Part shown: positions 11,300 through 63,405 of the stretch, one piece after another
Layout of the letters: every line of letters starts with the position of its first letter
Position numbering within the stretch: the first letter of the stretch is position 1
Translations under genes and position numbers: made by a program
DNA from: a virus
Reading direction: 5' to 3' (one strand)
Virus record (IMG/VR): IMGVR_UViG_3300016665_000824
Coordinates: 70,297-134,296 of that record
Length of the DNA stretch: 64,000 nucleotides
The notes under the pieces: generated by a model
The model's input: only the letters and a program-made list of their open reading frames with translations
What the model was told of the DNA's origin: nothing
The model's database searches: none

Positions 11300-11755
11300 A
11301 TGTCTAACTCTAGTTCTGCCACAAAATTGGCGATCGCAAGATTAAAAGGATCTGACCTGCCTATTTTTGTTCCAGTTTCAGTCTCTGAGAAAGTCGCAAC
11401 CCTAGTCAGGGAGTGTATTTTACAGTCCGACAGTTTAAAGATATTAAAAGTTACTACTACAGTTTACAACGAGCTTACTAAGCATTTAAAGCAGTACGAA
11501 AAGCCAAAATATACCATTCCTCAGTATCTTTTGATGCTCCTATATACGGTTTCTACTACTTCAGAATTGATCGAAAAACACAACAAGGGTTTAATTTCAG
11601 ATGACGAGTTTATTAACTGTATCAAAAACAACAAAAACGCAAACGGGACTAAAACCTCCCGCAAAATGGGTCGGAAGAAAGCAAGCGTTGATGCCAGCGA
11701 TCGCGCAGTACTTCCCCGCGAGGTTCACAAAAGAACCAGTTCCAAGGTTTCTTGA
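11300..11755 (+). CDS. hypothetical protein (3' end uncertain; overlaps MTase gene in another frame)
   Basis: 151-aa ORF; last ~40 codons look non-coding and overlap the Dam-like ORF. Confidence 0.3.
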   Translation: MSNSSSATKLAIARLKGSDLPIFVPVSVSEKVATLVRECILQSDSLKILKVTTTVYNELTKHLKQYEKPKYTIPQYLLMLLYTVSTTSELIEKHNKGLISDDEFINCIKNNKNANGTKTSRKMGRKKASVDASDRAVLPREVHKRTSSKVS

Positions 11756-12518
11756 TTTCAAAAAGGGTGTCGGCAATTTCCACGACCCTTTCGTTGGTAC
11801 TGGTAGTGCATTTTTGTATTTTGCGGATGGATTTCGAGGCGATCGCAAGATTTTTATTAGTGACAGTAATCCTGAACTCATTAATATTTGGCTGTGCATT
11901 CAAGCCGATCCTCTAAGGCTTTTAAGATCCTTGCTTGAATACAAGCGCCCTGTATTTAACAGCGCCGAATCGTACTATCACGAAAGGCAGATCTTCAATC
12001 AGCAGTTTAAAGGTTCTTACGACTACGAGCTAGCAGCAAGAATGATCTACTTAATTCAGGCTGGTTTCAATAGCCTATGGAGGGTTAACAGCGACGGTGA
12101 AATGAACACGCCTTTTGGCTCTCAGAAGCAAATTGCCCTTCTTACCGAGAATGATTTGACCGCGCTTTCGGTTCTCCTTCAAAAAGCGACAATCAAACAT
12201 CAGCCTTTTGAAGAGTCGCTAAAAGATGTACAACCCAATGATGTCGTCTATCTCGACCCGCCATACATTGAAGTCAAAAAGAATTCCTTCAATAAATACA
12301 CCACAAAAGGTTTTAGCAGAGAGCAGCAGATACTCCTCCGCCAAGAAGCCGATCGCCTGCACGATCTAGGCGCTTATGTATACGCCAGTAATAGCGATAC
12401 CCCCTTGAGTCGCGAAATTTGGTCGGGCTGGAAAATCGCAGAACTGACGAGATCGGGCTGCATGAACTCAGATGCAACCAAGCGTCAACGGGTTGGAGAG
12501 TTGTTATTTTATAAATAA
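11601..12518 (+). CDS. N6-adenine DNA methyltransferase, Dam family (D12 class)
   Basis: KWVGRK (cf. KWAGGK), FVGTGSAF SAM-binding motif, and DPPY catalytic motif (VVYLDPPYIE) in the translation. Confidence 0.8.
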   Translation: MTSLLTVSKTTKTQTGLKPPAKWVGRKQALMPAIAQYFPARFTKEPVPRFLDFKKGVGNFHDPFVGTGSAFLYFADGFRGDRKIFISDSNPELINIWLCIQADPLRLLRSLLEYKRPVFNSAESYYHERQIFNQQFKGSYDYELAARMIYLIQAGFNSLWRVNSDGEMNTPFGSQKQIALLTENDLTALSVLLQKATIKHQPFEESLKDVQPNDVVYLDPPYIEVKKNSFNKYTTKGFSREQQILLRQEADRLHDLGAYVYASNSDTPLSREIWSGWKIAELTRSGCMNSDATKRQRVGELLFYK

Positions 12519-12542
12519 AAAAAGCCAGTCGCGGGACTGGCT
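12516..12542 (-). terminator. hairpin with U-run on minus strand
   Basis: agccagtc-gcgg-gactggct preceded on plus strand by A7; would terminate minus-strand (antisense) transcripts inside a plus-strand gene block. Confidence 0.35.
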
Positions 12543-12618
12543 ACAGGTAAAACAACAAAAGACAACTAAGCGGAAATCAACATATACCGAGCATTTGTGG
12601 AGAACAGCTCAGGCACTT

Positions 12619-13122
12619 ATGGATATTAGCACAGAATTAAAACAAATCACTGTGAGATCGATGCGAGGAGGCAGCTTTTCGTTCGGTCCTCACGATATTC
12701 GAGTCGATCGCGGGTCGATCTTAGGCAATCCCTACGAGATGGCGAAAGATGAATCCAATCGCGATCGCGTATGCCTTGCCTACAAGCACTGGCTATTTGC
12801 AAATATTCGGTACTGGCTGGACATGAAAGAAAAAGGCATTGCAAAGGCTCTCTGGTGGCATATCGATCCAAAGAGCATAGCGATCGCCTCGGATTTAAGA
12901 ATTGCTCCGTCGTGGAAGCAGTTCACTGTTGCTCAGGTGGAGAGTGAATTTACTCGCCTCTGCTATGAAGCAACCCAGCACGATATCAACCTCATTTGCT
13001 GGTGCTTTCCAAAAGCTTGCCATGCGGATGTACTGCGAGCAGCCTTGATCTGGTACTACGAGGAGCATTACTTAAAGGAGTGCTCACGGATTGAAACGAC
13101 TATTAAAGAATTTTTTAGGTAA
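12619..13122 (+). CDS. DUF4326-family protein
   Basis: GNPY and CWCFPKACHADVL motifs resemble the DUF4326 signature as recalled (GNPF ... CWC.P..CH); start moved to ATG 12619 because upstream part of ORF 12472.. contains the hairpin. Confidence 0.45.
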   Translation: MDISTELKQITVRSMRGGSFSFGPHDIRVDRGSILGNPYEMAKDESNRDRVCLAYKHWLFANIRYWLDMKEKGIAKALWWHIDPKSIAIASDLRIAPSWKQFTVAQVESEFTRLCYEATQHDINLICWCFPKACHADVLRAALIWYYEEHYLKECSRIETTIKEFFR

Positions 13123-13127
13123 ACACT

Positions 13128-13394
13128 ATGAGAAAACAAGTCCACTATGCCGTTCGCGCCGTTAAAGCCTTGATGGATGGCGATGTTGTAACAATCGATG
13201 GGATGGATTATATCTATCAAGACGGGCAGATACTGATAAGGGCTACTCGCATTGAAGACGGCGTTGAGTCTGAAGTATGGCTGGGAGGAATGTGCTCCGA
13301 AATGAGTCTCGACTACTTTTTGAATTACTGCGCCAACAAAACTTTTGAAGATCAAGTTCTCGATTTTCCCGTAAAAATTCCATCACGGTACTAA
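13128..13394 (+). CDS. hypothetical protein
   Basis: 88-aa ORF. Confidence 0.4.
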   Translation: MRKQVHYAVRAVKALMDGDVVTIDGMDYIYQDGQILIRATRIEDGVESEVWLGGMCSEMSLDYFLNYCANKTFEDQVLDFPVKIPSRY

Positions 13395-13395
13395 T

Positions 13396-13605
13396 ATGAA
13401 TACACAAATTAAGCTCAGGCATTCCGTTGTTTTACCTACACCCCTAAAAGTTGGCGATCGCGTAGAAATCGCAGGTCCATCTCGCCACGTTGGAATTATT
13501 ACGGAGATTAAAGATAGTCCATATTCGGGGCTATCCTACAGCGTCAAGTTTGGCAGCAATATCCGTCTTGACCGTATCGCCCCAGAAGCCTTGACAAAGT
13601 TATGA
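13396..13605 (+). CDS. hypothetical protein
   Basis: 69-aa ORF, tightly spaced. Confidence 0.35.
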   Translation: MNTQIKLRHSVVLPTPLKVGDRVEIAGPSRHVGIITEIKDSPYSGLSYSVKFGSNIRLDRIAPEALTKL

Positions 13606-13934
13606 TTAAGAAGCGTCCAGCGATCGGGCGGCTAGTAAGGTTGCCAAGTAAAATCGTCACTGTTGTGGGGTATAAGGATGGGGTTTTTCTAGTCCGCGTC
13701 GGCACGGGAAAGACTCAGAAAATCACGGAATCGTTTCTTATGGCGCACGGCGTTCTTGTCGAGAAGGAGTGGCGCGAGGAGAAGAAGTCTGCACCCAAAC
13801 AGGAATACGTGAACCGAGAGTTTAAACGCTTCTTTGAGGAGCGAGCCGAAAGGGACTACCAAGAAAAAGTTCTTAAGGGCTTTAAGATTGAGGATGAAGT
13901 TATCGAAGGATTTGAGGCGATCGCGGAGGAATAA
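13602..13934 (+). CDS. hypothetical protein
   Basis: 110-aa Lys/Glu-rich ORF; ends in ...AIAEE with junction motif GCGATCGCGGAGGAATAAATG. Confidence 0.4.
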   Translation: MIKKRPAIGRLVRLPSKIVTVVGYKDGVFLVRVGTGKTQKITESFLMAHGVLVEKEWREEKKSAPKQEYVNREFKRFFEERAERDYQEKVLKGFKIEDEVIEGFEAIAEE

Positions 13935-14141
13935 ATGGATATCGAAGAACTTGTTGCCGCAGCATCCGTAAGTCGGCATATATATCTTGAGCGCGTCGGC
14001 AAAGGTAGGCTACCAAAAGGATTTCCCTGTGGTGAGCTAATGTGCGTTAATTCGGACGGCAACCGAACTTATTTATTTGATTCGGCGAAAGTCTTAAAGT
14101 GGTGTCGAAAGCAAAATAATCAGGCGATCGCGGAGGAATAA
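13935..14141 (+). CDS. hypothetical protein
   Basis: 68-aa ORF; ends ...AIAEE with same junction motif. Confidence 0.35.
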   Translation: MDIEELVAAASVSRHIYLERVGKGRLPKGFPCGELMCVNSDGNRTYLFDSAKVLKWCRKQNNQAIAEE

Positions 14142-14407
14142 TGCGAAAAATAGACAAGGACTACAGTTTTACAGAACGAGAGATTCAGGCGTTAATGTTG
14201 ATATGCACTATTGGACGAGAAGACTGGCTCACTAAAGAGGTGAAGGAGATATTGTCGCAATACATAAGCAGAAAGATGTATCACAGGACTGCTTCTCAAG
14301 TCTTTGCTCACAGAAAAAGAGTTCTGGGTTCTTTCCCTAGCAATGCGGGTAAATACTTACTTGAAAGGCGAACTAGCTTTATTGAGCGATCGCGGAGGAG
14401 TGAGTAA
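14141..14407 (+). CDS. hypothetical protein
   Basis: 88-aa ORF; ends ...RSRRSE within a third copy of GCGATCGCGGAGGA. Confidence 0.35.
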   Translation: MRKIDKDYSFTEREIQALMLICTIGREDWLTKEVKEILSQYISRKMYHRTASQVFAHRKRVLGSFPSNAGKYLLERRTSFIERSRRSE

Positions 14408-14413
14408 AAATAT

Positions 14414-14450
14414 AAAAAGACGATCCGACGTGAGATCGGATCGTCTTTTT
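14414..14450. terminator. bidirectional intrinsic terminator between convergent gene blocks
   Basis: Perfect 15-bp stem aaaaagacgatccga / tcggatcgtcttttt, 7-nt loop, A/T tracts on both sides. Confidence 0.7.
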
Positions 14451-14578
14451 ATATTTTGGTAGGCTGTGAAACAACTAATACAAAAGGGTTTTAGGGTATT
14501 GGAAGGAATTTTGGTAAGGTGTGAATCTCGCTGCTTTTTAATTACGCGAATACACGTAATTCATATTTACCAATACCT

Positions 14579-16336
14579 CTAGCTAGCGATCGCCATTAAT
14601 TTAGTCAACCCAGCCTTCCGCAACATCTCTTGCTGGAGCTTGGTTTGAAAATATGGCTTATCCTCAGCACTTGCTACTCGATACAGTTCCAGCCAGTATT
14701 TCTCCCGCTTCTCGCAGTGTATATGCTGAATCTTGGCGATCGCACGGTCAACCACTGCCTTGACATCGCCAGCGATCGCCTCTTGCATTGCGTAAGGTAT
14801 GTCCGAAAAGTCATCGTTCAGGAATTTATCCCACAGCGCACAGTGATCGTCATGGGCAAATTCGATCTCTTGAAGCAGGATATACCCCCGCAAATCGGGA
14901 TGATGGACAAAGGCTTTTAGTATCTGCATTTCGGCTAGTTGCAGAGCAGTATAACTGGGTTTTGCGGCAACCTGTGGTGATTCAGATCGGAATACCGATC
15001 GCGCAAGTCGATGTAAATCCTCCTCAATGCGTACGGCAAGGCGAGCATTTCCCTGAGCTAACTTCTGAGCACACTTATGGGTATAGTGGCTACGTCGGGC
15101 ATCCATCGGCAATGGGGCGAGTATTTGCGCGATCGCTTGATTAGCTCGCTGGAAGTCGGCAGAATTGTTAAGGTCTTTGCCCTTAATCTCAAGGTCAATT
15201 AACCAGTCAAGGTATAGCGGCGCTTCGCGGAGCAGCGATAAGTACGCTTCAGAACCATAAGTGGTTAGGTACTCGTCGGCATCTTTTTTGCCCTCAATGG
15301 TTAGTATCCGTAGATTTACCGTACCATCCAGAACTAGCTCTAGGACTTGACTTACGGCTTTTTTAGTTGCCGTAACACCTGCTTTGTCCGAGTCGAAGTT
15401 GCAAACTATACGCTTCGACTCAGTATGGCGTAAAACCTGTTTAATTTGAGCGGCGCTAAGCGCTGTGCCCATTGAGCCGACTGCATGGGTAATTCCATTT
15501 TGGTGCAGGGAAATCACGTCGAGGTGTCCTTCGACAATTACCGCCTCGTCGTTCTTGGCGATCGCCTCACAAGCTTTGTCTAGTCCAAACAGTAGTTCAC
15601 CCTTTTTGAACAACTCGGTTTCGGGCGAGTTGATATACTTTGCGCCGTCGTCCTCACCGCTTAGCGATCGCGCAGAAAATCCAACCACGCGACCACGGAT
15701 ATCGGCGATCGGGATAATCAGGCGATCGCGAAATCGGTCATAGTAGCCTTCGTTTTCTTTGCGAGGTATCGCCAACCCCAATTCTTCAAGAGTTTGAACG
15801 GGGATATTTAACTCGGCAAGGTTACTCCACCCCGCAGGCGCGTAACCGAGCTTGAACTTATTGCAGGTATCTCTGGTGATTTTGCGTTTTTCTAAGTAGG
15901 CAAGGGCTTTGGTGTTGAGCTGTTGCTGGTAGTAACGAGTGACTTTAGCTATTTGATCGAAGAGGTATTCCCTGTGCGATCGCTCCTTAACGATTTGCTC
16001 GGCATGTTCTGGCTCTTCGGTTCTTACTTCAACCCCGTAACGACCAGCCAAATCTAGTACGGCATCTGGGAACGATTTATGACCAATCTCCATCATAAAC
16101 TTGATCGCACCACCCGACGCACCGCAGTTATGGCAGTAATACATGCCTTTGCTGGGGTCTACCGAGAGGGCGCTGGGATTCGTGCCGTTGTGAAATGGGC
16201 AAGCGCCACGAAATGAGTGACCCGACCGCTTAAGTACGACGTTTTCGCTAACGACATCAACGATGTCGGCTTTGTCGTTTACTGCGGCGATCGTATCAGC
16301 ATGGATTCGGAATGATTTAGGTTTGGCGGATTGCAT
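14579..16336 (-). CDS. dnaG: DNA primase DnaG
   Basis: CHC2 zinc finger (CPFHNGTNPSALSV...YYCHNCGASGGAIKF) and TOPRIM-like EGHLDVISL segment. Confidence 0.85.
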   Translation of the reverse strand: MQSAKPKSFRIHADTIAAVNDKADIVDVVSENVVLKRSGHSFRGACPFHNGTNPSALSVDPSKGMYYCHNCGASGGAIKFMMEIGHKSFPDAVLDLAGRYGVEVRTEEPEHAEQIVKERSHREYLFDQIAKVTRYYQQQLNTKALAYLEKRKITRDTCNKFKLGYAPAGWSNLAELNIPVQTLEELGLAIPRKENEGYYDRFRDRLIIPIADIRGRVVGFSARSLSGEDDGAKYINSPETELFKKGELLFGLDKACEAIAKNDEAVIVEGHLDVISLHQNGITHAVGSMGTALSAAQIKQVLRHTESKRIVCNFDSDKAGVTATKKAVSQVLELVLDGTVNLRILTIEGKKDADEYLTTYGSEAYLSLLREAPLYLDWLIDLEIKGKDLNNSADFQRANQAIAQILAPLPMDARRSHYTHKCAQKLAQGNARLAVRIEEDLHRLARSVFRSESPQVAAKPSYTALQLAEMQILKAFVHHPDLRGYILLQEIEFAHDDHCALWDKFLNDDFSDIPYAMQEAIAGDVKAVVDRAIAKIQHIHCEKREKYWLELYRVASAEDKPYFQTKLQQEMLRKAGLTKLMAIAS

Positions 16337-18327: not shown

Positions 18328-18359
18328 GCTGCGATCGCATAAAAATCGAGGAGAAAACC

Positions 18360-18806
18360 ATGAGTTACGACGGGAACATTTACGAGGATGCTATGGAATC
18401 AATTTCACAGTTATCCTCAACGGAAAATCTTTTGTCTTGGGCTAAGAAACTGCGAGAGGCGGCTGAAGTCGAAACGTATCGCAGTCAGTTTTTGATAAAT
18501 ACAGCGTGGAATCTTGAGGAGTGCGCGTGGATGCCTGAGCTATTACAGCAGCTTGAGGATATGGGGATCAAAAGAAACACAATGTTTGGCGGCGCTCCGA
18601 CTGGGAGGGGGCAGACAGGATACTGGACCCATTTAGCCCCCAAGGACTGCGATTTCGATCCTTGTATCTCACCCGTGTTTGGTAAGACTGAGTATGAGTC
18701 ACTGAAAGAGGCGATCGCGCTGGAGGTACAAATCCGAGAGTATATGACTGGTTGGAGCAAAATACCCTTTGCTTGTTCTATACCTGCGGAAGTAGGCGAT
18801 CGCTAA
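18360..18806 (+). CDS. hypothetical protein
   Basis: 148-aa ORF. Confidence 0.4.
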   Translation: MSYDGNIYEDAMESISQLSSTENLLSWAKKLREAAEVETYRSQFLINTAWNLEECAWMPELLQQLEDMGIKRNTMFGGAPTGRGQTGYWTHLAPKDCDFDPCISPVFGKTEYESLKEAIALEVQIREYMTGWSKIPFACSIPAEVGDR

Positions 18807-19170
18807 TTTTTAATCCGCAACGTAATTTTGTTGTGCTATTGTTGTAATCACCAAAGAAGCAAATGAGAGACCCACCTGCTAAAAATAAGCAAAAAATAAA
18901 AGAGCCAACCGCCAAGTCGCTCTTTCATTCTTTGAAAATGATTGTTTGTTTCACTTCAGTTTCGGTTGTTCCTTCCACCTCGTCGTTTACACGCCTTGGC
19001 TGTTTGTGTTCAACACGACACTAATTTCCTGAATACTCTAACACATGGCGATCGCTTTGTGAAGGGGAATTTACGGAATTGGTGAAAAAACTGGAAGACA
19101 AGTGGTTTCTTGGGAATCTCAAGAACGCTTTGGTTGTTTTTTACACTTTAGTTTCGTAGGAAATTTAGTT

Positions 19171-19701
19171 ATGCTCTCAAGCGAAGAATACATACGCGAC
19201 AGACAAGACTTCGGTTGCTGGGAAGCCCGTATATTTTACTCCCCAGAATTAGATGCCGTTGTTGCGGCAGGTTTTATGGATGGGTTGATCTTCAACAAGG
19301 AAGAACTCTTCCAGCTAGGCTCATTACTCCTTGATGCCTCAATTAACGTTTCGGGTAAAGACATCTGCCACCTCAATAATCGGACATCGGCGAGAGGTCG
19401 TTCTGACAAGGATTTTTGGCTACAGCGCAAGAATAGATCTGGACTCGTGTATCTAATCAAGGCGATCGGGACTAACTACTACAAAATTGGTAGAACAAAA
19501 GATATTGAGACTAGATTAGAGACCCTGCAAAAGTCATCTCCATTCGACCTCTCGCTGATTCTTGCCATAGAAACATCAGACTCTTTGGCTCTAGAGAGGT
19601 ACTTCCACGATAAGTACAATGATTGTCGAGTTAGGGGTGAGTGGTTTGAGCTAGATGAGTATGCGATCGCTGAATTTATGAGCTACGAGGAGGTCGCGTG
19701 A
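19171..19701 (+). CDS. T5orf172-domain protein (GIY-YIG-like nuclease fold)
   Basis: C-terminal GLVYLIKAIGTNYYKIGRTKDIETRLETLQ ... ERYFHDKY...GEWFEL matches the T5orf172 pattern; start set at first ATG (ORF track starts at GTG 19102). Confidence 0.55.
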   Translation: MLSSEEYIRDRQDFGCWEARIFYSPELDAVVAAGFMDGLIFNKEELFQLGSLLLDASINVSGKDICHLNNRTSARGRSDKDFWLQRKNRSGLVYLIKAIGTNYYKIGRTKDIETRLETLQKSSPFDLSLILAIETSDSLALERYFHDKYNDCRVRGEWFELDEYAIAEFMSYEEVA

Positions 19702-28105: not shown

Positions 28106-28331
28106 CCCAGCAGGACATTATCCTAGACAAGATGCGTCGGAAGCAATCGGAATTTGAAGACTACTACGTTTTTAGCACTCACGACATAGTGACCCTATGT
28201 GAGGACAGTCATCTGGACTGGGACTTGGCTTTTGACCAGCTAATAGCTTTAAACAAGAGGAATCTAGTTGCTATAAATCCGACATATTGCGATCGCACAG
28301 GCAAATTTATCGGATTGTTGTGGGGTTTAAA

Positions 28332-29276
28332 ATGAGTAAAACCGTAGCCACGATGTATTCTGGCTTTGGCGGAGTTGATCAGGGTTTCGTTTTGGCAGGG
28401 TATACGCCAGTCTTTGCGATCGATAACAATCCTGATGCAGTAGCGGTTTATATCGAGAATTTTGGCAACCACTGTCTAGAGAAGGACGTTTGTGAGTTTG
28501 ATTATTCAAGAGTTAAAGCAGATCACCTCCATGCTTCTCCAAGCTGCAAAGAGTTTAGTAGCGCCAATCACCGTAGTAGCGAAACCGATCTCGATATTCG
28601 ATGCGCCCAAGCTACGGTTAAGGCGATCGCACAGATAAACCCTCAAACATTTTCCCTCGAAAATGTAAAGCAGTACGCTAAGTCTAAGTCTTTTGATTTG
28701 ATTAGGCGATCGCTACGAGAAATGGGCTACGCCTGCAACGTAACCGTAGTCAACGCGAAGGATTTCGGTGTATCCCAATCACGAGAAAGGCTAATTCTTC
28801 GAGCATGGGTTAAATCCCGCAAACGCCCTAGACCTTTGGCGTTGTACAAACAGTGTTTAACAATGGGGTGGCATGACGCGATCGCCGATTTAATCCCCAC
28901 TCTCAAACCACAACCATTGAATAATTGGCAGCTAGCCTCTCTTGAGGAGCAGGGTATAGACCCCACCAACCTAACTGCACTGGTTAGCAAAGATGGGTCT
29001 CGCAAGAAAAAAGGCTTTAAAAATACTTTTGCCTTGGTAATCCCCTCGTCCAAGCCTTGCCCAACCCTCAAGGCAATGGGGCATAATCAGCACTGTCAGC
29101 AGTATTCGATTGTGGTTAACGGTGTTGGTTATCGGATTTCTACCGAGGCGATCGCGAGACTAATGAGCTTTCCCGACTCATTCAAATTCTCAGGAGTGAA
29201 TTATAAAGACTGTATGGGTTTAGGTAATGCAGTACCGCCATTATTGGTAAGAGCGATCGCGGAAAGTTTTGCTTAA
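28332..29276 (+). CDS. DNA (cytosine-5)-methyltransferase
   Basis: Motif I YSGFGG, motif IV PSCKEFS (Pro-Cys catalytic dipeptide), ENV, QSRER, GNAV; start at ATG 28332. Confidence 0.8.
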   Translation: MSKTVATMYSGFGGVDQGFVLAGYTPVFAIDNNPDAVAVYIENFGNHCLEKDVCEFDYSRVKADHLHASPSCKEFSSANHRSSETDLDIRCAQATVKAIAQINPQTFSLENVKQYAKSKSFDLIRRSLREMGYACNVTVVNAKDFGVSQSRERLILRAWVKSRKRPRPLALYKQCLTMGWHDAIADLIPTLKPQPLNNWQLASLEEQGIDPTNLTALVSKDGSRKKKGFKNTFALVIPSSKPCPTLKAMGHNQHCQQYSIVVNGVGYRISTEAIARLMSFPDSFKFSGVNYKDCMGLGNAVPPLLVRAIAESFA

Positions 29277-61050: not shown

Positions 61051-61250
61051 AAATATTAAAAAGCGATCGCCAATAGGCTATGTGATTTTTACGATTCTAA
61101 ACTTGATATCTCGATATGTCCGACGCAAAGATGACAGCTCCACCTTGGCTTCTTTCTTGTCGTACTGATACTTATTTTGTCTAACCCATACGTTAGGCTG
61201 CTCAAACTTTGTTACTAACTTTTCAATTGCGTACATCGTTGTAACTGGTT

Positions 61251-61440
61251 TAAAAAGCGATCGCTATCCTGAAGAGAGGTGGATAGGCGATCGCAAAATG
61301 TACATCATGAAAAATCCTCTCCCCACAATCTTAACTTGGATTCGCATTAAAAAGCGATCGCTATCCTGAAGAGAGGTGGACAGGCGATCGCTAAAATGAT
61401 TATCTAACATGACCTCTCCCCACAATTTTAACTTGATTTT
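61251..61440. repeat. two tandem ~97-bp repeats, each with a pair of HIP1 sites
   Basis: taaaaagcgatcgctatcctgaagagaggtgga(t/c)aggcgatcgc ... cctctccccacaat(c/t)ttaacttg at 61251 and 61348; ORF-free region upstream of the par operon. Confidence 0.6.
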
Positions 61441-61594
61441 GTGGCAAAAAAATACCGACGTCCTGTGGAGTGGTGGACGACGGGCTATGTAATCTCGATG
61501 GTCTGGAAATATTCTACGCGGTTTTGTGGCGCTTTTATTATCGAATCCCGCATTTAATCGATAATAACGAGAAAATTATTCCTAGATATTATCA

Positions 61595-62068: not shown

Positions 62069-62892
62069 ATACGTTTTAAATCTCAAGAAAGCTCTCATTT
62101 GTTAACAGTAACTGGAAGATTTCTTTGTAAAAGACCTAATAAAAAAGACCTAGCTCGATCCGTGATCCAGAGATCCAAAATCTCCACGTCCAAAACAGTT
62201 AACTTTTTGAGTGATTCAGGGGGTTGCTATTGGGAATTTTCGCGCGTGTGCATAGAAATAGCAAATTTGACCGTCAAAAAAATAAGCTTTATAGTGTCAT
62301 CACTTAGCTGTGTGACAGGCATCTAAGTAAGGGCTTTACAGTTCTCTAGTCACTTATATATGGCTAGCAAGCGTAAACAAAGGAATAGTAAAGACAGCTA
62401 ACAAGCTGTTTGTAACTAGGGTAGAAATTCGGTTAAGTAGCTACGAAGAAACATAGCTACTTTGAACTTAAGAAAGAGTTTTTTGTTTGCGGGTTTTAAT
62501 GCCTCACTTGCAAGGTAGATAGGATGAACAAAGAGATTAAACAGTGAATTAACACGGTATAGGCTGTAACTAGTAGATAAAGCACTCTAAGCTCAAACAA
62601 CGATCGCACTAAGTTAAACGGTTACTTAGTAAAGCGATCGCACTCATTCCCATTGCTTACGAGATAGGCAAAAAGTGAGGGAATAAAGCGATCGGCGATC
62701 GGGTAGTTCGATCCCGTCATGGGTAAGGACTACAGCACTTAGGAATAGCTCTAAAGTAGCTAGGGTTAAGTGAGTTAGTAGCTATTTGCGAGTAATAGCT
62801 TAAGCGTAGGTACTAATCACTTCATACGCAAATTAGATCAAAGAGATAAACCGTTAAAACTATTCACACTATATTTTTTGAGGGTTAAAACC

Positions 62893-63405
62893 ATGTCTAA
62901 TCTTAATACTGAGTTTTCCGAATTGATTGCGATCGCTGATTTTCACGGTGTAAGCATTGATGAAGCAGTTGCGCTAAAAACTGCTAGCGAAAGCGCTAGT
63001 AAAAAGCTTACTCGTAATCTTTCTACAGCGATCGCTGATCGTCTTGTTGCGACAATCGAAAATGATTGGAGCGCTACTAACTCTAATTATCTTGATGTGC
63101 TAACTCGTAGAATGCAACGCGCTAACCGTAAAGAACGCTTAGCCGATCCTGTTGCAAAACTTGAAGCACCCGTTGAAGTAGTAGTTGAAGCACCCGTTGA
63201 GACTGAAAAAGTTACCGTTGAAGCACCCGTTGAAGTAGTAGTTGAAGCACCCGTTGAGACAGCTATCGACAGATCACCAACGCAGGCACGCCGCAAACGT
63301 GGCGCTACAGTTGCAACGGTTGAAGCACTCGCACCCGTTGAGACTGAAAAAGTTACCGTTGAAGCACCCGTTGCGAGAAAAACTAGATCACGTAGAGCTA
63401 AGTAA
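62893..63405 (+). CDS. protein with tandem EAPVE(V/T) peptide repeats
   Basis: ORF 62878..63405; start at ATG 62893; nucleotide tandem repeats at about 63166-63380 encode repeated EAPVEVVVEAPVETEKVTV units. Confidence 0.45.
   Translation: MSNLNTEFSELIAIADFHGVSIDEAVALKTASESASKKLTRNLSTAIADRLVATIENDWSATNSNYLDVLTRRMQRANRKERLADPVAKLEAPVEVVVEAPVETEKVTVEAPVEVVVEAPVETAIDRSPTQARRKRGATVATVEALAPVETEKVTVEAPVARKTRSRRAK

What the first reader, a model, noticed from the sequence alone, without database searches (positions are those of the whole stretch)
13917..14408. Three consecutive small genes end in the same GCGATCGCGGAGGA(ATAA) junction
The sequence GCGATCGCGGAGGAATAA(A)TG (HIP1 plus a Shine-Dalgarno-like GGAGGA plus stop/start) occurs at 13917-13937 and 14124-14143, with a variant GCGATCGCGGAGGAGTGAGTAA at 14387-14408. 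As a result three unrelated small proteins share C-terminal ...AIAEE or ...RSRRSE ends. This points to a conserved translational-coupling or recombination junction.
Basis: seen in the sequence. Interest (0 to 1): 0.4.

Follow-up and report, generated by a model that had tools for sequence, protein, structure and literature searches.

The report
Shared junction between cyanophage gene cassettes
Three neighbouring small genes of an uncultured cyanobacterial virus end in the same 14-20-base sequence, which serves as the ribosome-binding and stop/start signal for the next gene and is also the seam where related viruses have swapped these genes; this is a new variant of known modular shuffling, not a new kind of system.

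Summary
All three are on the gene strand, at the 3' ends of three consecutive unrelated small genes. The window is a HIP1-rich phage (186 GCGATCGC in 64 kb), yet about 0.1 HIP1+GGAGGA combinations are expected. The 18-mer is at chance level in 596 Gb of genomes and absent from IMG/VR.

About ten related phage variants show that the slot between a conserved 110-aa gene (gA) and a convergent primase holds 0-3 small genes in different combinations. These are nearly always joined by this motif.
- Cassette C follows three different upstream genes.
- C is 99.6% identical to its copy in another phage, from one HIP1 exactly to the next, while the flank is 77% identical.
- Gene E ends in AIAEE only where it abuts the motif.
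- GGAGGA decays in the four relatives with no downstream gene.

Best reading: the motif is the gA tail (HIP1 + Shine-Dalgarno + stop/start), copied behind each cassette by recombination at HIP1 or the short junction homology. It resembles PeSL-type modular shuffling and HIP1-flanked excision. A general link between HIP1 and breakpoints is only modest and did not replicate in a second region.

The parts
11601..13605 (+). Conserved upstream part of the operon: D12 N6-adenine DNA methyltransferase (11601-12518), DUF4326 protein (12472-13122), 88-aa ORF (13128-13394, absent from L121) and 69-aa ORF (13396-13605).
   Evidence: Synteny with L121, L122, L124, L133 and L134.
13602..13934 (+). Gene gA (110 aa), the conserved anchor gene. 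Its C-terminus IEDEVIEGFEAIAEE carries the first junction.
   Evidence: Seventeen homologues were found, and most end in ..AIAEE.
13917..13937 (+). Junction J1, GCGATCGCGGAGGAATAAATG: HIP1, Shine-Dalgarno GGAGGA, TAA stop of gA and ATG of cassette B.
   Evidence: The same junction follows gA in L124, L125, L137, L127, L128 and L134. The local RNA is unstructured (z +1.7).
13935..14141 (+). Cassette B gene (68 aa, no family match), ending ..QAIAEE.
   Evidence: It is present in L124, L125, L137 and L139 (82% aa identity) and absent from L121, L122, L127, L128, L133, L134, L171 and L173.
14124..14143 (+). Junction J2, GCGATCGCGGAGGAATAATG: HIP1, SD and an overlapping TAATG stop/start.
   Evidence: This is the left edge of the 99.6% identity block shared with L127. 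The local RNA is unstructured (z +0.4).
14141..14407 (+). Cassette C gene (88 aa, no family match). It reads the motif in a different frame and ends ..ERSRRSE.
   Evidence: It follows B here, E in L127 and gA directly in L128/L129.
14386..14407 (+). Junction J3, GCGATCGCGGAGGAGTGAGTAA. No gene follows it. In the gA frame it reads AIAEE-TGA, so it looks like the displaced original gA tail.
   Evidence: Identity with L127 stops exactly at the end of this HIP1. Its layout matches the gA end plus terminator of cassette-less relatives.
14410..14454 (.). Bidirectional intrinsic-terminator hairpin between the small-gene operon and the convergent primase.
   Evidence: 20-pair stem; -49 kcal/mol, z -7.5.
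14579..16336 (-). DnaG-type primase, the conserved right-hand anchor of the variable slot.
18331..18803 (+). Second HIP1-flanked cassette: HIP1 (18331-18338), GAGGAG SD, 148-aa gene (18360-18806) and HIP1 (18796-18803).
   Evidence: Relative L133 has the empty site with a single HIP1, and L134, L137 and L122 carry other genes that end at a HIP1 at the same seam.

Best explanation
The window is part of an uncultured, HIP1-rich cyanophage of about 134 kb. The gap between a conserved 110-aa gene (gA) and the convergent primase is a hyperplastic slot that holds 0-3 small accessory genes.

The repeated 14-20 nt is the 3' end of gA. It consists of a HIP1 octamer read as Ala-Ile-Ala, then GGAGGA (Glu-Glu codons that double as a strong Shine-Dalgarno site), then a stop that abuts or overlaps the next start.

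Cassettes of the form [GGAGGA..ATG..gene..GCGATCGC] have been added, lost and re-assorted among co-infecting relatives. The crossovers fall in HIP1 or the short junction homology. As a result every cassette is followed by a fresh copy of the junction, and the original gA tail plus terminator now lies at the end of the array as J3.

This has three consequences.
1. Each downstream gene receives a ready-made ribosome site and termination-reinitiation coupling.
2. Unrelated upstream ORFs are closed by the junction and acquire an AIAEE tail, or RSRRSE in the other frame.
3. The direct repeats allow precise excision and re-insertion of single cassettes.

Shown here: the motif and its specificity, the cassette presence/absence and re-assortment, the breakpoints at the motif, and the dependence of SD conservation on a downstream gene. 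Inferred: the recombination mechanism, any special stimulatory role of HIP1 as opposed to plain microhomology, and actual translational coupling.
For: Specificity
- There are three exact copies and no others in the window.
- In about 190 kb of family DNA, every copy with at most 1 mismatch lies in this slot on the gene strand.
- The 18-mer is at chance level in 596 Gb of genomes and absent from IMG/VR.

Slot content across relatives
- None: L121, L130, L171, L173.
- A TnpB insertion sequence: L122.
- B+C: window.
- B+D: L124, L125, L137, L139.
- E+C+F: L127.
- E': L133.
- C': L128, L129.
- G: L134-L136.

Re-assortment at the motif
- Cassette C is preceded by B, by E or by gA, each time through GCGATCGCGGAGGA(A/G)TA(A/G).
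- Window and L127 share 270 nt with 1 mismatch. The block runs exactly from the first base of the J2 HIP1 to the last base of the J3 HIP1. The adjacent primase end is only 77% identical.
- E ends ..VSTVAIAEE in L127 but ..VKKN in L133. B ends AIAEE, AIVEE or AITEE, and a 55%-identical homologue reads on past ..NQAI. The tail therefore comes from the junction, not from the proteins.

Ribosome-binding role
- All 12 gene-gene junctions keep at least GAGG, and 9 of the 11 junction-type ones (the C|F spacer of L127 excluded) keep GGAGGA. Junctions followed directly by a terminator read CCGAAGA, GGAAGA, GGAAAA or have no motif (Fisher P=0.002).
- The B|D junctions keep the SD while HIP1 decays (GCGATCGT, GCGATCAC).
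- The RNA around J1 and J2 is unstructured.

Support from elsewhere
- An independent HIP1-flanked cassette lies at 18331-18803, with a single-HIP1 empty site in L133.
- Homology breakpoints lie within 12 nt of a HIP1 in 16 of 73 clusters against 6.7 expected.
- Literature: HIP1-flanked excision of smtB and HIP1-linked plasmid recombination (cited in 10.64898/2026.06.24.733823 and PMC4390886); HIP1 in homology arms raises integration up to 7-fold in PCC 7002 (10.1101/2024.09.10.611283); repeated boundary motifs drive shuffling in T4-type phages (PMC2839356, PMC4122927).
Against: - The general link between HIP1 and breakpoints is weak. Without the four focal breakpoints it is 12 of 69 (P=0.02). 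In an independent 12.5-kb region compared with relative L174 it is 4 of 28 (P=0.32). Many indels, for example the 13128-13394 gene and 23.2-25.5 kb, have no HIP1 at their edges.
- With one HIP1 per 345 bp, some coincidences are expected.
- Terminal cassettes D, F and G have no HIP1 at their 3' end.
- L133 has a cassette behind a junction without HIP1.
- J3 keeps an intact GGAGGA without a downstream gene, so it is the exception to the SD pattern.
- The relatives are short metagenomic contigs and are not phylogenetically independent.
- A 2026 preprint found no HIP1 effect on homology-directed editing in Nostoc punctiforme (10.64898/2026.07.31.742098).
- No experiment addresses coupling or recombination here.
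Confidence: 0.7

Rival explanations
1. The motif is purely an expression signal. Each junction independently keeps HIP1+GGAGGA+stop/start because it gives good translation initiation or coupling, and recombination plays no part.
For: SD conservation tracks the presence of a downstream gene. The B|D junctions keep the SD while HIP1 decays. The initiation regions are unstructured.
Against: HIP1 contributes nothing to ribosome binding, yet it is identical at all synonymous sites in six cassette-bearing lineages while the neighbouring gA codons vary. Only 4 of 123 genes in this phage use GGAGGA. Cassette C is found behind three different genes, and its 99.6% identity block is bounded by the motif while the flank is 77% identical. 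J3 has no gene to serve.
Confidence: 0.08
2. A dedicated site-specific system is at work, resembling an integron or a homing element. A HIP1- or junction-specific nuclease or recombinase, from the phage or the host, cuts in the motif and inserts or excises cassettes.
For: The boundaries lie exactly at HIP1. The literature reports HIP1-linked site-specific plasmid recombination and precise SDR5 insertion inside HIP1 (PMC4390886). The phage encodes two DNA methyltransferases, a T5orf172/MUG113 protein and a RusA resolvase.
Against: No integrase, serine recombinase or transposase was found among the roughly 40 window ORFs scanned. The scan did not cover every ORF. The junction has no attC-like inverted repeat or hairpin. 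Many other indel edges lack HIP1. The T5orf172 gene is conserved in place in relatives and is not mobile.
Confidence: 0.12
3. The selected feature is a protein-level tag. The acidic AIAEE C-terminus would serve for interaction or stability, and the DNA identity would be a by-product.
For: The gA tail ..EGFEAIAEE is conserved in most of 17 homologues down to 52% identity, including the cassette-less ones.
Against: C reads the motif in another frame (RSRRSE). Its 99% twin ends ..ERSPR and its 70% homologue ends ..KRFC. B tails vary (AIVEE, AITEE), E' lacks the tail, and a B homologue reads through it. Synonymous sites are frozen, which points to constraint at the nucleotide level.
Confidence: 0.05
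4. Artefact or purely local event: an assembly chimera at a short repeat, or a one-off tandem duplication in this genome only.
For: The window comes from a metagenome assembly.
Against: The repeat (14-21 nt) is far shorter than the assembly k-mer (k141 in the contig name). The same architecture appears in independent ENA, JGI and Logan assemblies from other samples. A JGI contig of 134,296 bp carries the identical gA.
Confidence: 0.02

Closest known systems
PeSL (promoter-early stem-loop) cassettes of T4-type phages (Arbiol et al. 2010, PMC2839356; Comeau et al. 2014, PMC4122927)
   Same: A short conserved motif is repeated at the boundaries of small, mostly ORFan genes in a hyperplastic region. 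Indels and replacements between related phages have their end points in the motif. Direct repeats could release single-gene circles.
   Different: PeSLs are intergenic promoter-plus-terminator units, so each cassette is its own transcription unit. Here the motif is the coding 3' end of the upstream gene plus a ribosome site. Cassettes stay inside one operon, are linked by stop/start overlap, and the upstream protein acquires a common C-terminal peptide. No promoter or stem-loop is present. Mini-circles have not been shown.
HIP1-flanked excision and HIP1-linked recombination in cyanobacteria (Gupta 1993; Robinson 1997; Akiyama 1998, as cited in PMC4390886 and 10.64898/2026.06.24.733823; Kamoku & Nielsen 2024, 10.1101/2024.09.10.611283)
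   Same: Segments bounded by direct GCGATCGC copies are present or absent, with one HIP1 left at the empty site. Crossover points map to the octamer.
   Different: Those cases are chromosomal or plasmid events observed in the laboratory. This one is natural gene-cassette turnover in a phage lineage. The repeat extends beyond HIP1 by a functional SD, and no rate or HIP1 dependence has been measured.
Conserved linker or boundary sequences in modular evolution of lambdoid and other temperate phages (Susskind-Botstein model; from my own knowledge, not checked here)
   Same: Short homologies at gene boundaries serve as crossover points between otherwise unrelated modules.
   Different: In this case the linker is a host-type hyper-abundant palindrome fused to an RBS, and it is repeated in tandem within one slot.
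Integron gene cassettes (attC/attI with IntI)
   Same: Promoter-less single-gene cassettes are arrayed head to tail behind a fixed anchor, separated by a recurring site, and vary in number and order between relatives.
   Different: There is no integrase and no attC hairpin. The site is 14-20 nt, lies within coding sequence and doubles as an RBS. The mechanism is presumably general or short-homology recombination.
Ordinary translational coupling in phage operons (TAATG and ATGA overlaps with an upstream SD)
   Same: Stop/start overlap or a gap of 3 nt or less. GGAGG lies 4-7 nt before the start. The initiation region is unstructured.
   Different: Ordinary coupling junctions are not identical between unrelated neighbouring genes and do not move with cassettes.

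Membership tests
HIP1 (highly iterated palindrome 1) | Exact octamer GCGATCGC, hyper-abundant in the replicon | tested here: met
   186 copies in 64 kb (2.9/kb); 1.3-5.6/kb in related loci. All three junctions contain it.
Shine-Dalgarno / translational-coupling junction | Purine-rich anti-SD complement 4-9 nt upstream of the start codon | tested here: met
   GGAGG lies 5 nt (J1) and 4 nt (J2) before the ATG, and 4-7 nt in relatives.
Shine-Dalgarno / translational-coupling junction | Upstream stop overlapping or within a few nt of the downstream start | tested here: met
   TAA|ATG (J1), TAATG (J2), and ATGA, TAATG or gaps of 3 nt or less in relatives.
Shine-Dalgarno / translational-coupling junction | The signal is conserved only where a downstream gene exists | tested here: met
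   At least GAGG is kept at 12 of 12 junctions with a downstream gene and at 1 of 5 without (the one is J3). Fisher P=0.002, lineages not independent.
Shine-Dalgarno / translational-coupling junction | Downstream translation depends on upstream translation | not testable with these tools
   Needs reporter assays or ribosome profiling.
PeSL-type modular-shuffling motif | Repeated conserved motif at the boundaries of small genes in a hyperplastic region, with indel or replacement end points in the motif | tested here: met
PeSL-type modular-shuffling motif | The motif is a sigma-70 early promoter plus a stem-loop terminator | tested here: not met
   No promoter-like site or stem-loop at J1 or J2. 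Fold z-scores are +1.7 and +0.4. The locus works like a PeSL region but is not a member of the family.
PeSL-type modular-shuffling motif | Circular single-cassette products | not testable with these tools
   Needs reads or PCR across 14393->14132 and 14131->13925.
Integron cassette array | Adjacent tyrosine-recombinase IntI and attI | tested here: not met
   No integrase among about 40 window ORFs scanned with Pfam or PHROGs. The scan was not exhaustive.
Integron cassette array | attC: imperfect inverted repeats that fold into a hairpin at each cassette end | tested here: not met
   There is no structure around J1 or J2. The only palindrome is the 8-nt HIP1.
HIP1-flanked excision/insertion | Segment bounded by direct HIP1 copies, with an empty site carrying one HIP1 in a relative | tested here: met
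   18331/18796 against L133. Cassette C is bounded by the HIP1 at 14124 and at 14386, with identity ending at their outer edges. gA followed directly by C' in L128 is the B-less state.
HIP1-flanked excision/insertion | HIP1 is over-represented at recombination breakpoints generally | tested here: inconclusive
   16 of 73 against 6.7 expected in 5-20.5 kb (P about 0.001). 12 of 69 without the focal sites (P=0.02). 4 of 28 in the independent 20.5-33 kb region (P=0.32).
Transposon target-site duplication | Transposase and terminal inverted repeats inside the duplicated flanks | tested here: not met
   Cassettes B and C are single small ORFs with no family match and no terminal repeats. The TnpB element in L122 lies in the terminator, not in the motif.

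The most novel reading that the evidence does not exclude
HIP1 octamers are genuine recombination sites that HIP1-rich cyanophages exploit as an integrase-free cassette-capture system. Promoter-less genes of the form [SD-gene-HIP1] would be excised as small circles between direct HIP1-SD repeats and re-inserted at any HIP1 that closes an ORF. The process might be promoted by methylation of GATC/CGATCG by the phage's own N6A and C5 methyltransferases. If so, natural phage mosaics would give direct evidence for the long-debated function of HIP1 in recombination.
Probability: 0.2. Interest if true: 0.75.

Novelty: new variant of a known kind. Interest (0 to 1): 0.5.

Why it matters
Phage accessory genes are known to be shuffled at short conserved boundary motifs. 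Here the motif is a host-type hyper-abundant palindrome fused to a ribosome-binding site inside coding sequence. One 14-mer therefore acts as a crossover point, the stop of whatever ORF lies upstream and the start signal of whatever lies downstream. This makes a compact plug-and-play design for promoter-less genes.

The locus also bears on the 30-year-old question of what HIP1 does. It offers natural cases of gene-sized segments gained, lost and exchanged with end points exactly at GCGATCGC, in a virus that carries 2.9 HIP1 per kb and encodes both an adenine and a cytosine methyltransferase. The phage is uncultured, the sample of relatives is small, and the genome-wide association is weak, so at present this is a testable lead and not a demonstration.

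Tried and rejected
- Close DNA relatives among isolated phages and plasmids: none. The primase is below 30% identical to any INPHARED phage.
- The 14-mer in IMG/VR: 120+ single chance hits, uninformative. The 18-mer: none.
- Exact look-up of the 110-aa protein failed because the gene was called 97 aa long there.
- Relatives of B and C in IMG/VR: none.
- The JGI metagenome scan with the gA profile gave only one locus, of the L121 type.
- Pfam and PHROGs give no function for gA, B or C. I did not attempt structure prediction because the alignments are too shallow.
- HIP1 generally enriched at gene ends: rejected.
- HIP1 as a general marker of breakpoints: only modest, and not replicated in an independent region.
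- SD sequestered in RNA structure: rejected.
- Common cyanobacterial motif: rejected.
- No DNA could be fetched for the contigs of P0003 (the distant B homologue) and P0018.
Full report
**1. The observation**

The + strand between 13.6 and 14.4 kb carries three tightly packed small ORFs:
- gA, 13602-13934, 110 aa
- B, 13935-14141, 68 aa
- C, 14141-14407, 88 aa

Each ends in GCGATCGCGGAGGA (13917, 14124, 14386). The first two copies extend to AGGCGATCGCGGAGGAATAA followed by (A)TG.

gA and B read the motif as AIAEE*. C reads it one frame over as RSRRSE*. The three genes share nothing else at protein or DNA level.

The window is very rich in HIP1: 186 GCGATCGC, or 2.9/kb. Even so, only about 0.1 HIP1 sites flanked by GGAGGA are expected (arithmetic), and no fourth copy exists. 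HIP1 is not generally enriched at gene ends: 14 of 123 genes against 11.6 +/- 3.2 expected. GGAGGA is a rare ribosome site here, used by 4 of 123 genes.

**2. What the replicon is**

The window matches ENA contig ERZ27292652 k141_20893 (134 kb). It encodes the following:
- portal, large terminase, tail fibre and endolysin
- sliding clamp, DnaB, DnaG and a RusA resolvase
- dCTP deaminase and thymidylate synthase
- a D12 N6-adenine methyltransferase and a C5-cytosine methyltransferase

Relatives are IMG/VR viral contigs. There is no close isolated phage or plasmid. It is therefore an uncultured phage, and its HIP1 load points to a cyanobacterial host (inference).

The three genes close a + strand operon: methyltransferase, DUF4326, 88 aa, 69 aa, gA, B, C. 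The operon ends at a strong bidirectional terminator at 14410-14454, facing the convergent primase.

**3. Is the motif common elsewhere?**

It is not.
- GCGATCGCGGAGGARTAA gives 31 single hits in 185,579 genomes (596 Gb). About 35 are expected by chance (my arithmetic). Only three hits are in cyanobacterial MAGs, and their contexts are unrelated.
- The 18-mer is absent from IMG/VR. The bare 14-mer gives only scattered single hits there.
- In about 190 kb of DNA from this phage family, every copy with at most 1 mismatch lies downstream of gA on the gene strand.

**4. Comparative anatomy of the slot**

Relatives were found through the primase, homologues of B and C and homologues of gA. The content between gA and the terminator/primase varies:

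| Content | Loci |
|---|---|
| nothing | L121/L130, L171, L173 |
| a TnpB-type insertion sequence sitting in the terminator loop | L122 |
| B + C | window |
| B + D | L124/L125, L137/L139 |
| E + C + F | L127 |
| E' | L133 |
| C' | L128/L129 |
| G | L134-L136 |

Gene-gene joints in this slot are nearly always the motif:

| Joint | Locus | Sequence |
|---|---|---|
| gA\|B | L124, L137 | GCGATCGCGGAGGAATAATG |
| gA\|E | L127 | GCGATCGCGGAGGAAGTATG |
| E\|C | L127 | GCGATCGCGGAGGAGTAATG |
| gA\|C' | L128 | GCGATCGCGGAGGAATAGCCGTG |
| gA\|G | L134 | GCGATCGCGGAGGAGTAAAATG |
| B\|D (decayed) | L124 | GCGATCGTAGAGGAGTAAATTGTG |
| B\|D (decayed) | L137 | GCGATCACGGAGGAATAAATTATG |

Two joints lack the motif: gA|E' in L133 (GAAATAACAGAGGAAATATG, no HIP1) and C|F in L127, which has its own spacer.

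**5. Evidence that the motif is a recombination seam**

- Cassette C lies behind three different genes: B, E and gA.
- Window and L127 share 270 nt with one mismatch. The block runs exactly from the first base of the HIP1 at 14124 to the last base of the HIP1 at 14393. Upstream, the sequences are unrelated (B versus E). Downstream, they diverge at once (GGAGGAGTGAGTAA versus CTAGATAG). The nearby primase end is only 77% identical. This indicates a recent transfer of a HIP1-bounded cassette between diverged genomes.
- The AIAEE tail travels with the junction, not with the protein. E ends ..VSTVAIAEE in L127 but ..VKKN in L133. B ends AIAEE, AIVEE or AITEE. A 55%-identical B homologue reads on as ..NQAIPNETAV...
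- J3 read in the gA frame is AIAEE-TGA. Together with the terminator it has the same layout as the gA end plus terminator of cassette-less relatives.

The array can therefore be parsed as gA | HIP1 | [GGAGGAATAAATG..B..HIP1] | [GGAGGAATAATG..C..HIP1] | GGAGGAGTGAGTAA + terminator. This is what ectopic crossovers between the HIP1 at the end of one ORF and the HIP1 at the end of gA in another genome would produce (inference).

**6. Evidence that GGAGGA is a working ribosome site**

- Stops and starts overlap or lie within 3 nt. GGAGG sits 4-7 nt upstream of the start.
- The RNA around J1 and J2 is less structured than shuffled controls.
- All 12 gene-gene junctions keep at least GAGG.
- The four lineages in which gA is followed directly by the terminator read CCGAAGA, GGAAGA, GGAAAA or lack the motif. 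The same Glu-Glu is then encoded as GAA GAA.
- Counting J3 as the exception, Fisher P=0.002. The lineages are not independent.
- In the B|D junctions HIP1 decays while the SD is kept, so the two halves of the motif are under different constraints.
- In six cassette-bearing lineages the 14-mer is invariant at all synonymous sites, while the preceding gA codons vary.

**7. Does HIP1 mark breakpoints in general?**

A second clean case exists. The window has HIP1 (18331), GAGGAG, a 148-aa gene and HIP1 (18796). L133 has the empty site with a single HIP1. Other relatives carry different genes that end at a HIP1 at the same seam.

Across 5-20.5 kb, 16 of 73 clustered BLAST breakpoints against nine relatives lie within 12 nt of a HIP1, against 6.7 +/- 2.5 expected (P about 0.001). 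Without the four focal breakpoints the figure is 12 of 69 (P=0.02).

In an independent region (20.5-33 kb against the newly fetched L174) it is 4 of 28 (P=0.32). Several large indels have no HIP1 at their edges.

A HIP1-specific stimulation of recombination therefore remains a hypothesis. What is solid is that in this slot the crossovers fall in the HIP1/SD junction.

**8. Comparison with what is known**

- The closest functional analogue is the PeSL system of T4-type phages. There, repeated promoter/terminator motifs flank small ORFan genes in hyperplastic regions, mediate indels and replacements, and release mini-circles (PMC2839356, PMC4122927). The present motif fails the defining promoter-plus-stem-loop test. 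It works like a PeSL region without being a member of the family.
- It also matches the HIP1 literature. This includes excision between HIP1 repeats at smtB, HIP1-linked plasmid recombination and SDR5 insertion inside HIP1 (as cited in PMC4390886 and 10.64898/2026.06.24.733823). It also includes a homology-dependent, possibly Chi-like, boost of integration by HIP1 in PCC 7002 (10.1101/2024.09.10.611283). A Nostoc study saw no effect (10.64898/2026.07.31.742098).
- I found no paper linking HIP1 to phage mosaicism. The search covers open-access literature only.
- Integron, transposon and artefact readings fail their defining features (see the membership table).

**9. Verdict**

The mechanism is a composite junction: the gA tail, made of HIP1, SD and stop/start, is propagated by short-homology recombination. 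It simultaneously terminates the upstream ORF, initiates the downstream one and provides the crossover site for cassette shuffling.

- Confidence in the overall reading: about 0.7.
- Confidence in a HIP1-specific stimulatory role: about 0.2-0.4.
- Novelty: a new variant of a known kind.
- Interest: moderate (0.5). It is mainly a natural handle on HIP1 function and a neat design for promoter-less cassette exchange.

Noticed in passing
L122 4640-6075 (shown reverse-complemented): In this relative a 397-aa TnpB/IS605-OrfB-like gene with flanking sequence sits between gA and the primase. It is inserted into the loop of the terminator hairpin (aaaaaagatccgat | IS | atcggatctttttttt). The same slot is therefore also a target for an IS200/IS605-type element.
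   Followed up: partly
window 11601-12518 and 28287-29276: The phage encodes both a D12-class N6-adenine methyltransferase and a C5-cytosine methyltransferase, and carries 2.9 HIP1 per kb. This mirrors the host pair that methylates GATC and CGATCG inside HIP1. The specificities of the phage enzymes are unknown.
   Followed up: partly
window 61219-61478: An intergenic 97-bp unit is repeated three times in tandem. Each of the first two copies holds an inverted repeat built from two HIP1 sites (AAAAAGCGATCGCTATCC..GGATAGGCGATCGC) followed by (T)AAAATG. It could be iterons, terminators or a regulatory array.
   Followed up: no
window 63149-63377: 12-nt periodic direct repeats (TTGAAGCACCCGTTGAAGTAGTAG..) lie inside ORF 62878-63405, i.e. 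a repetitive coding segment.
   Followed up: no
window 13128-13394: This 88-aa gene is absent from L121, and unrelated 131-132-aa genes occupy the position in L124 and L133. It is a second variable slot in the same operon, and its edges carry no HIP1, so not all cassette turnover here uses HIP1.
   Followed up: partly
window 18806-19100: The intergenic element TAAnnTTTAATCCGCAACGTAATTTTGTTGTGCTATTGTTG.. is conserved in L122, L133, L134, L137 and L174. It lies immediately after the variable gene and HIP1 and upstream of the T5orf172/MUG113 gene (19102-19701). It is probably a regulatory region.
   Followed up: no
window 14579-14600: The primase ends ..MAIAS* with a HIP1 (14586-14593) a few bases from its stop codon. 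Alignments with five relatives begin at this point, so HIP1 also sits at the right-hand edge of the variable slot.
   Followed up: partly
window 14354-14407: The GAGUGAGUA of J3 can pair with UACUUACUU at 14354-14362 inside gene C, forming a 9-bp helix just upstream of the terminator in the minimum-free-energy fold. It may be chance.
   Followed up: no
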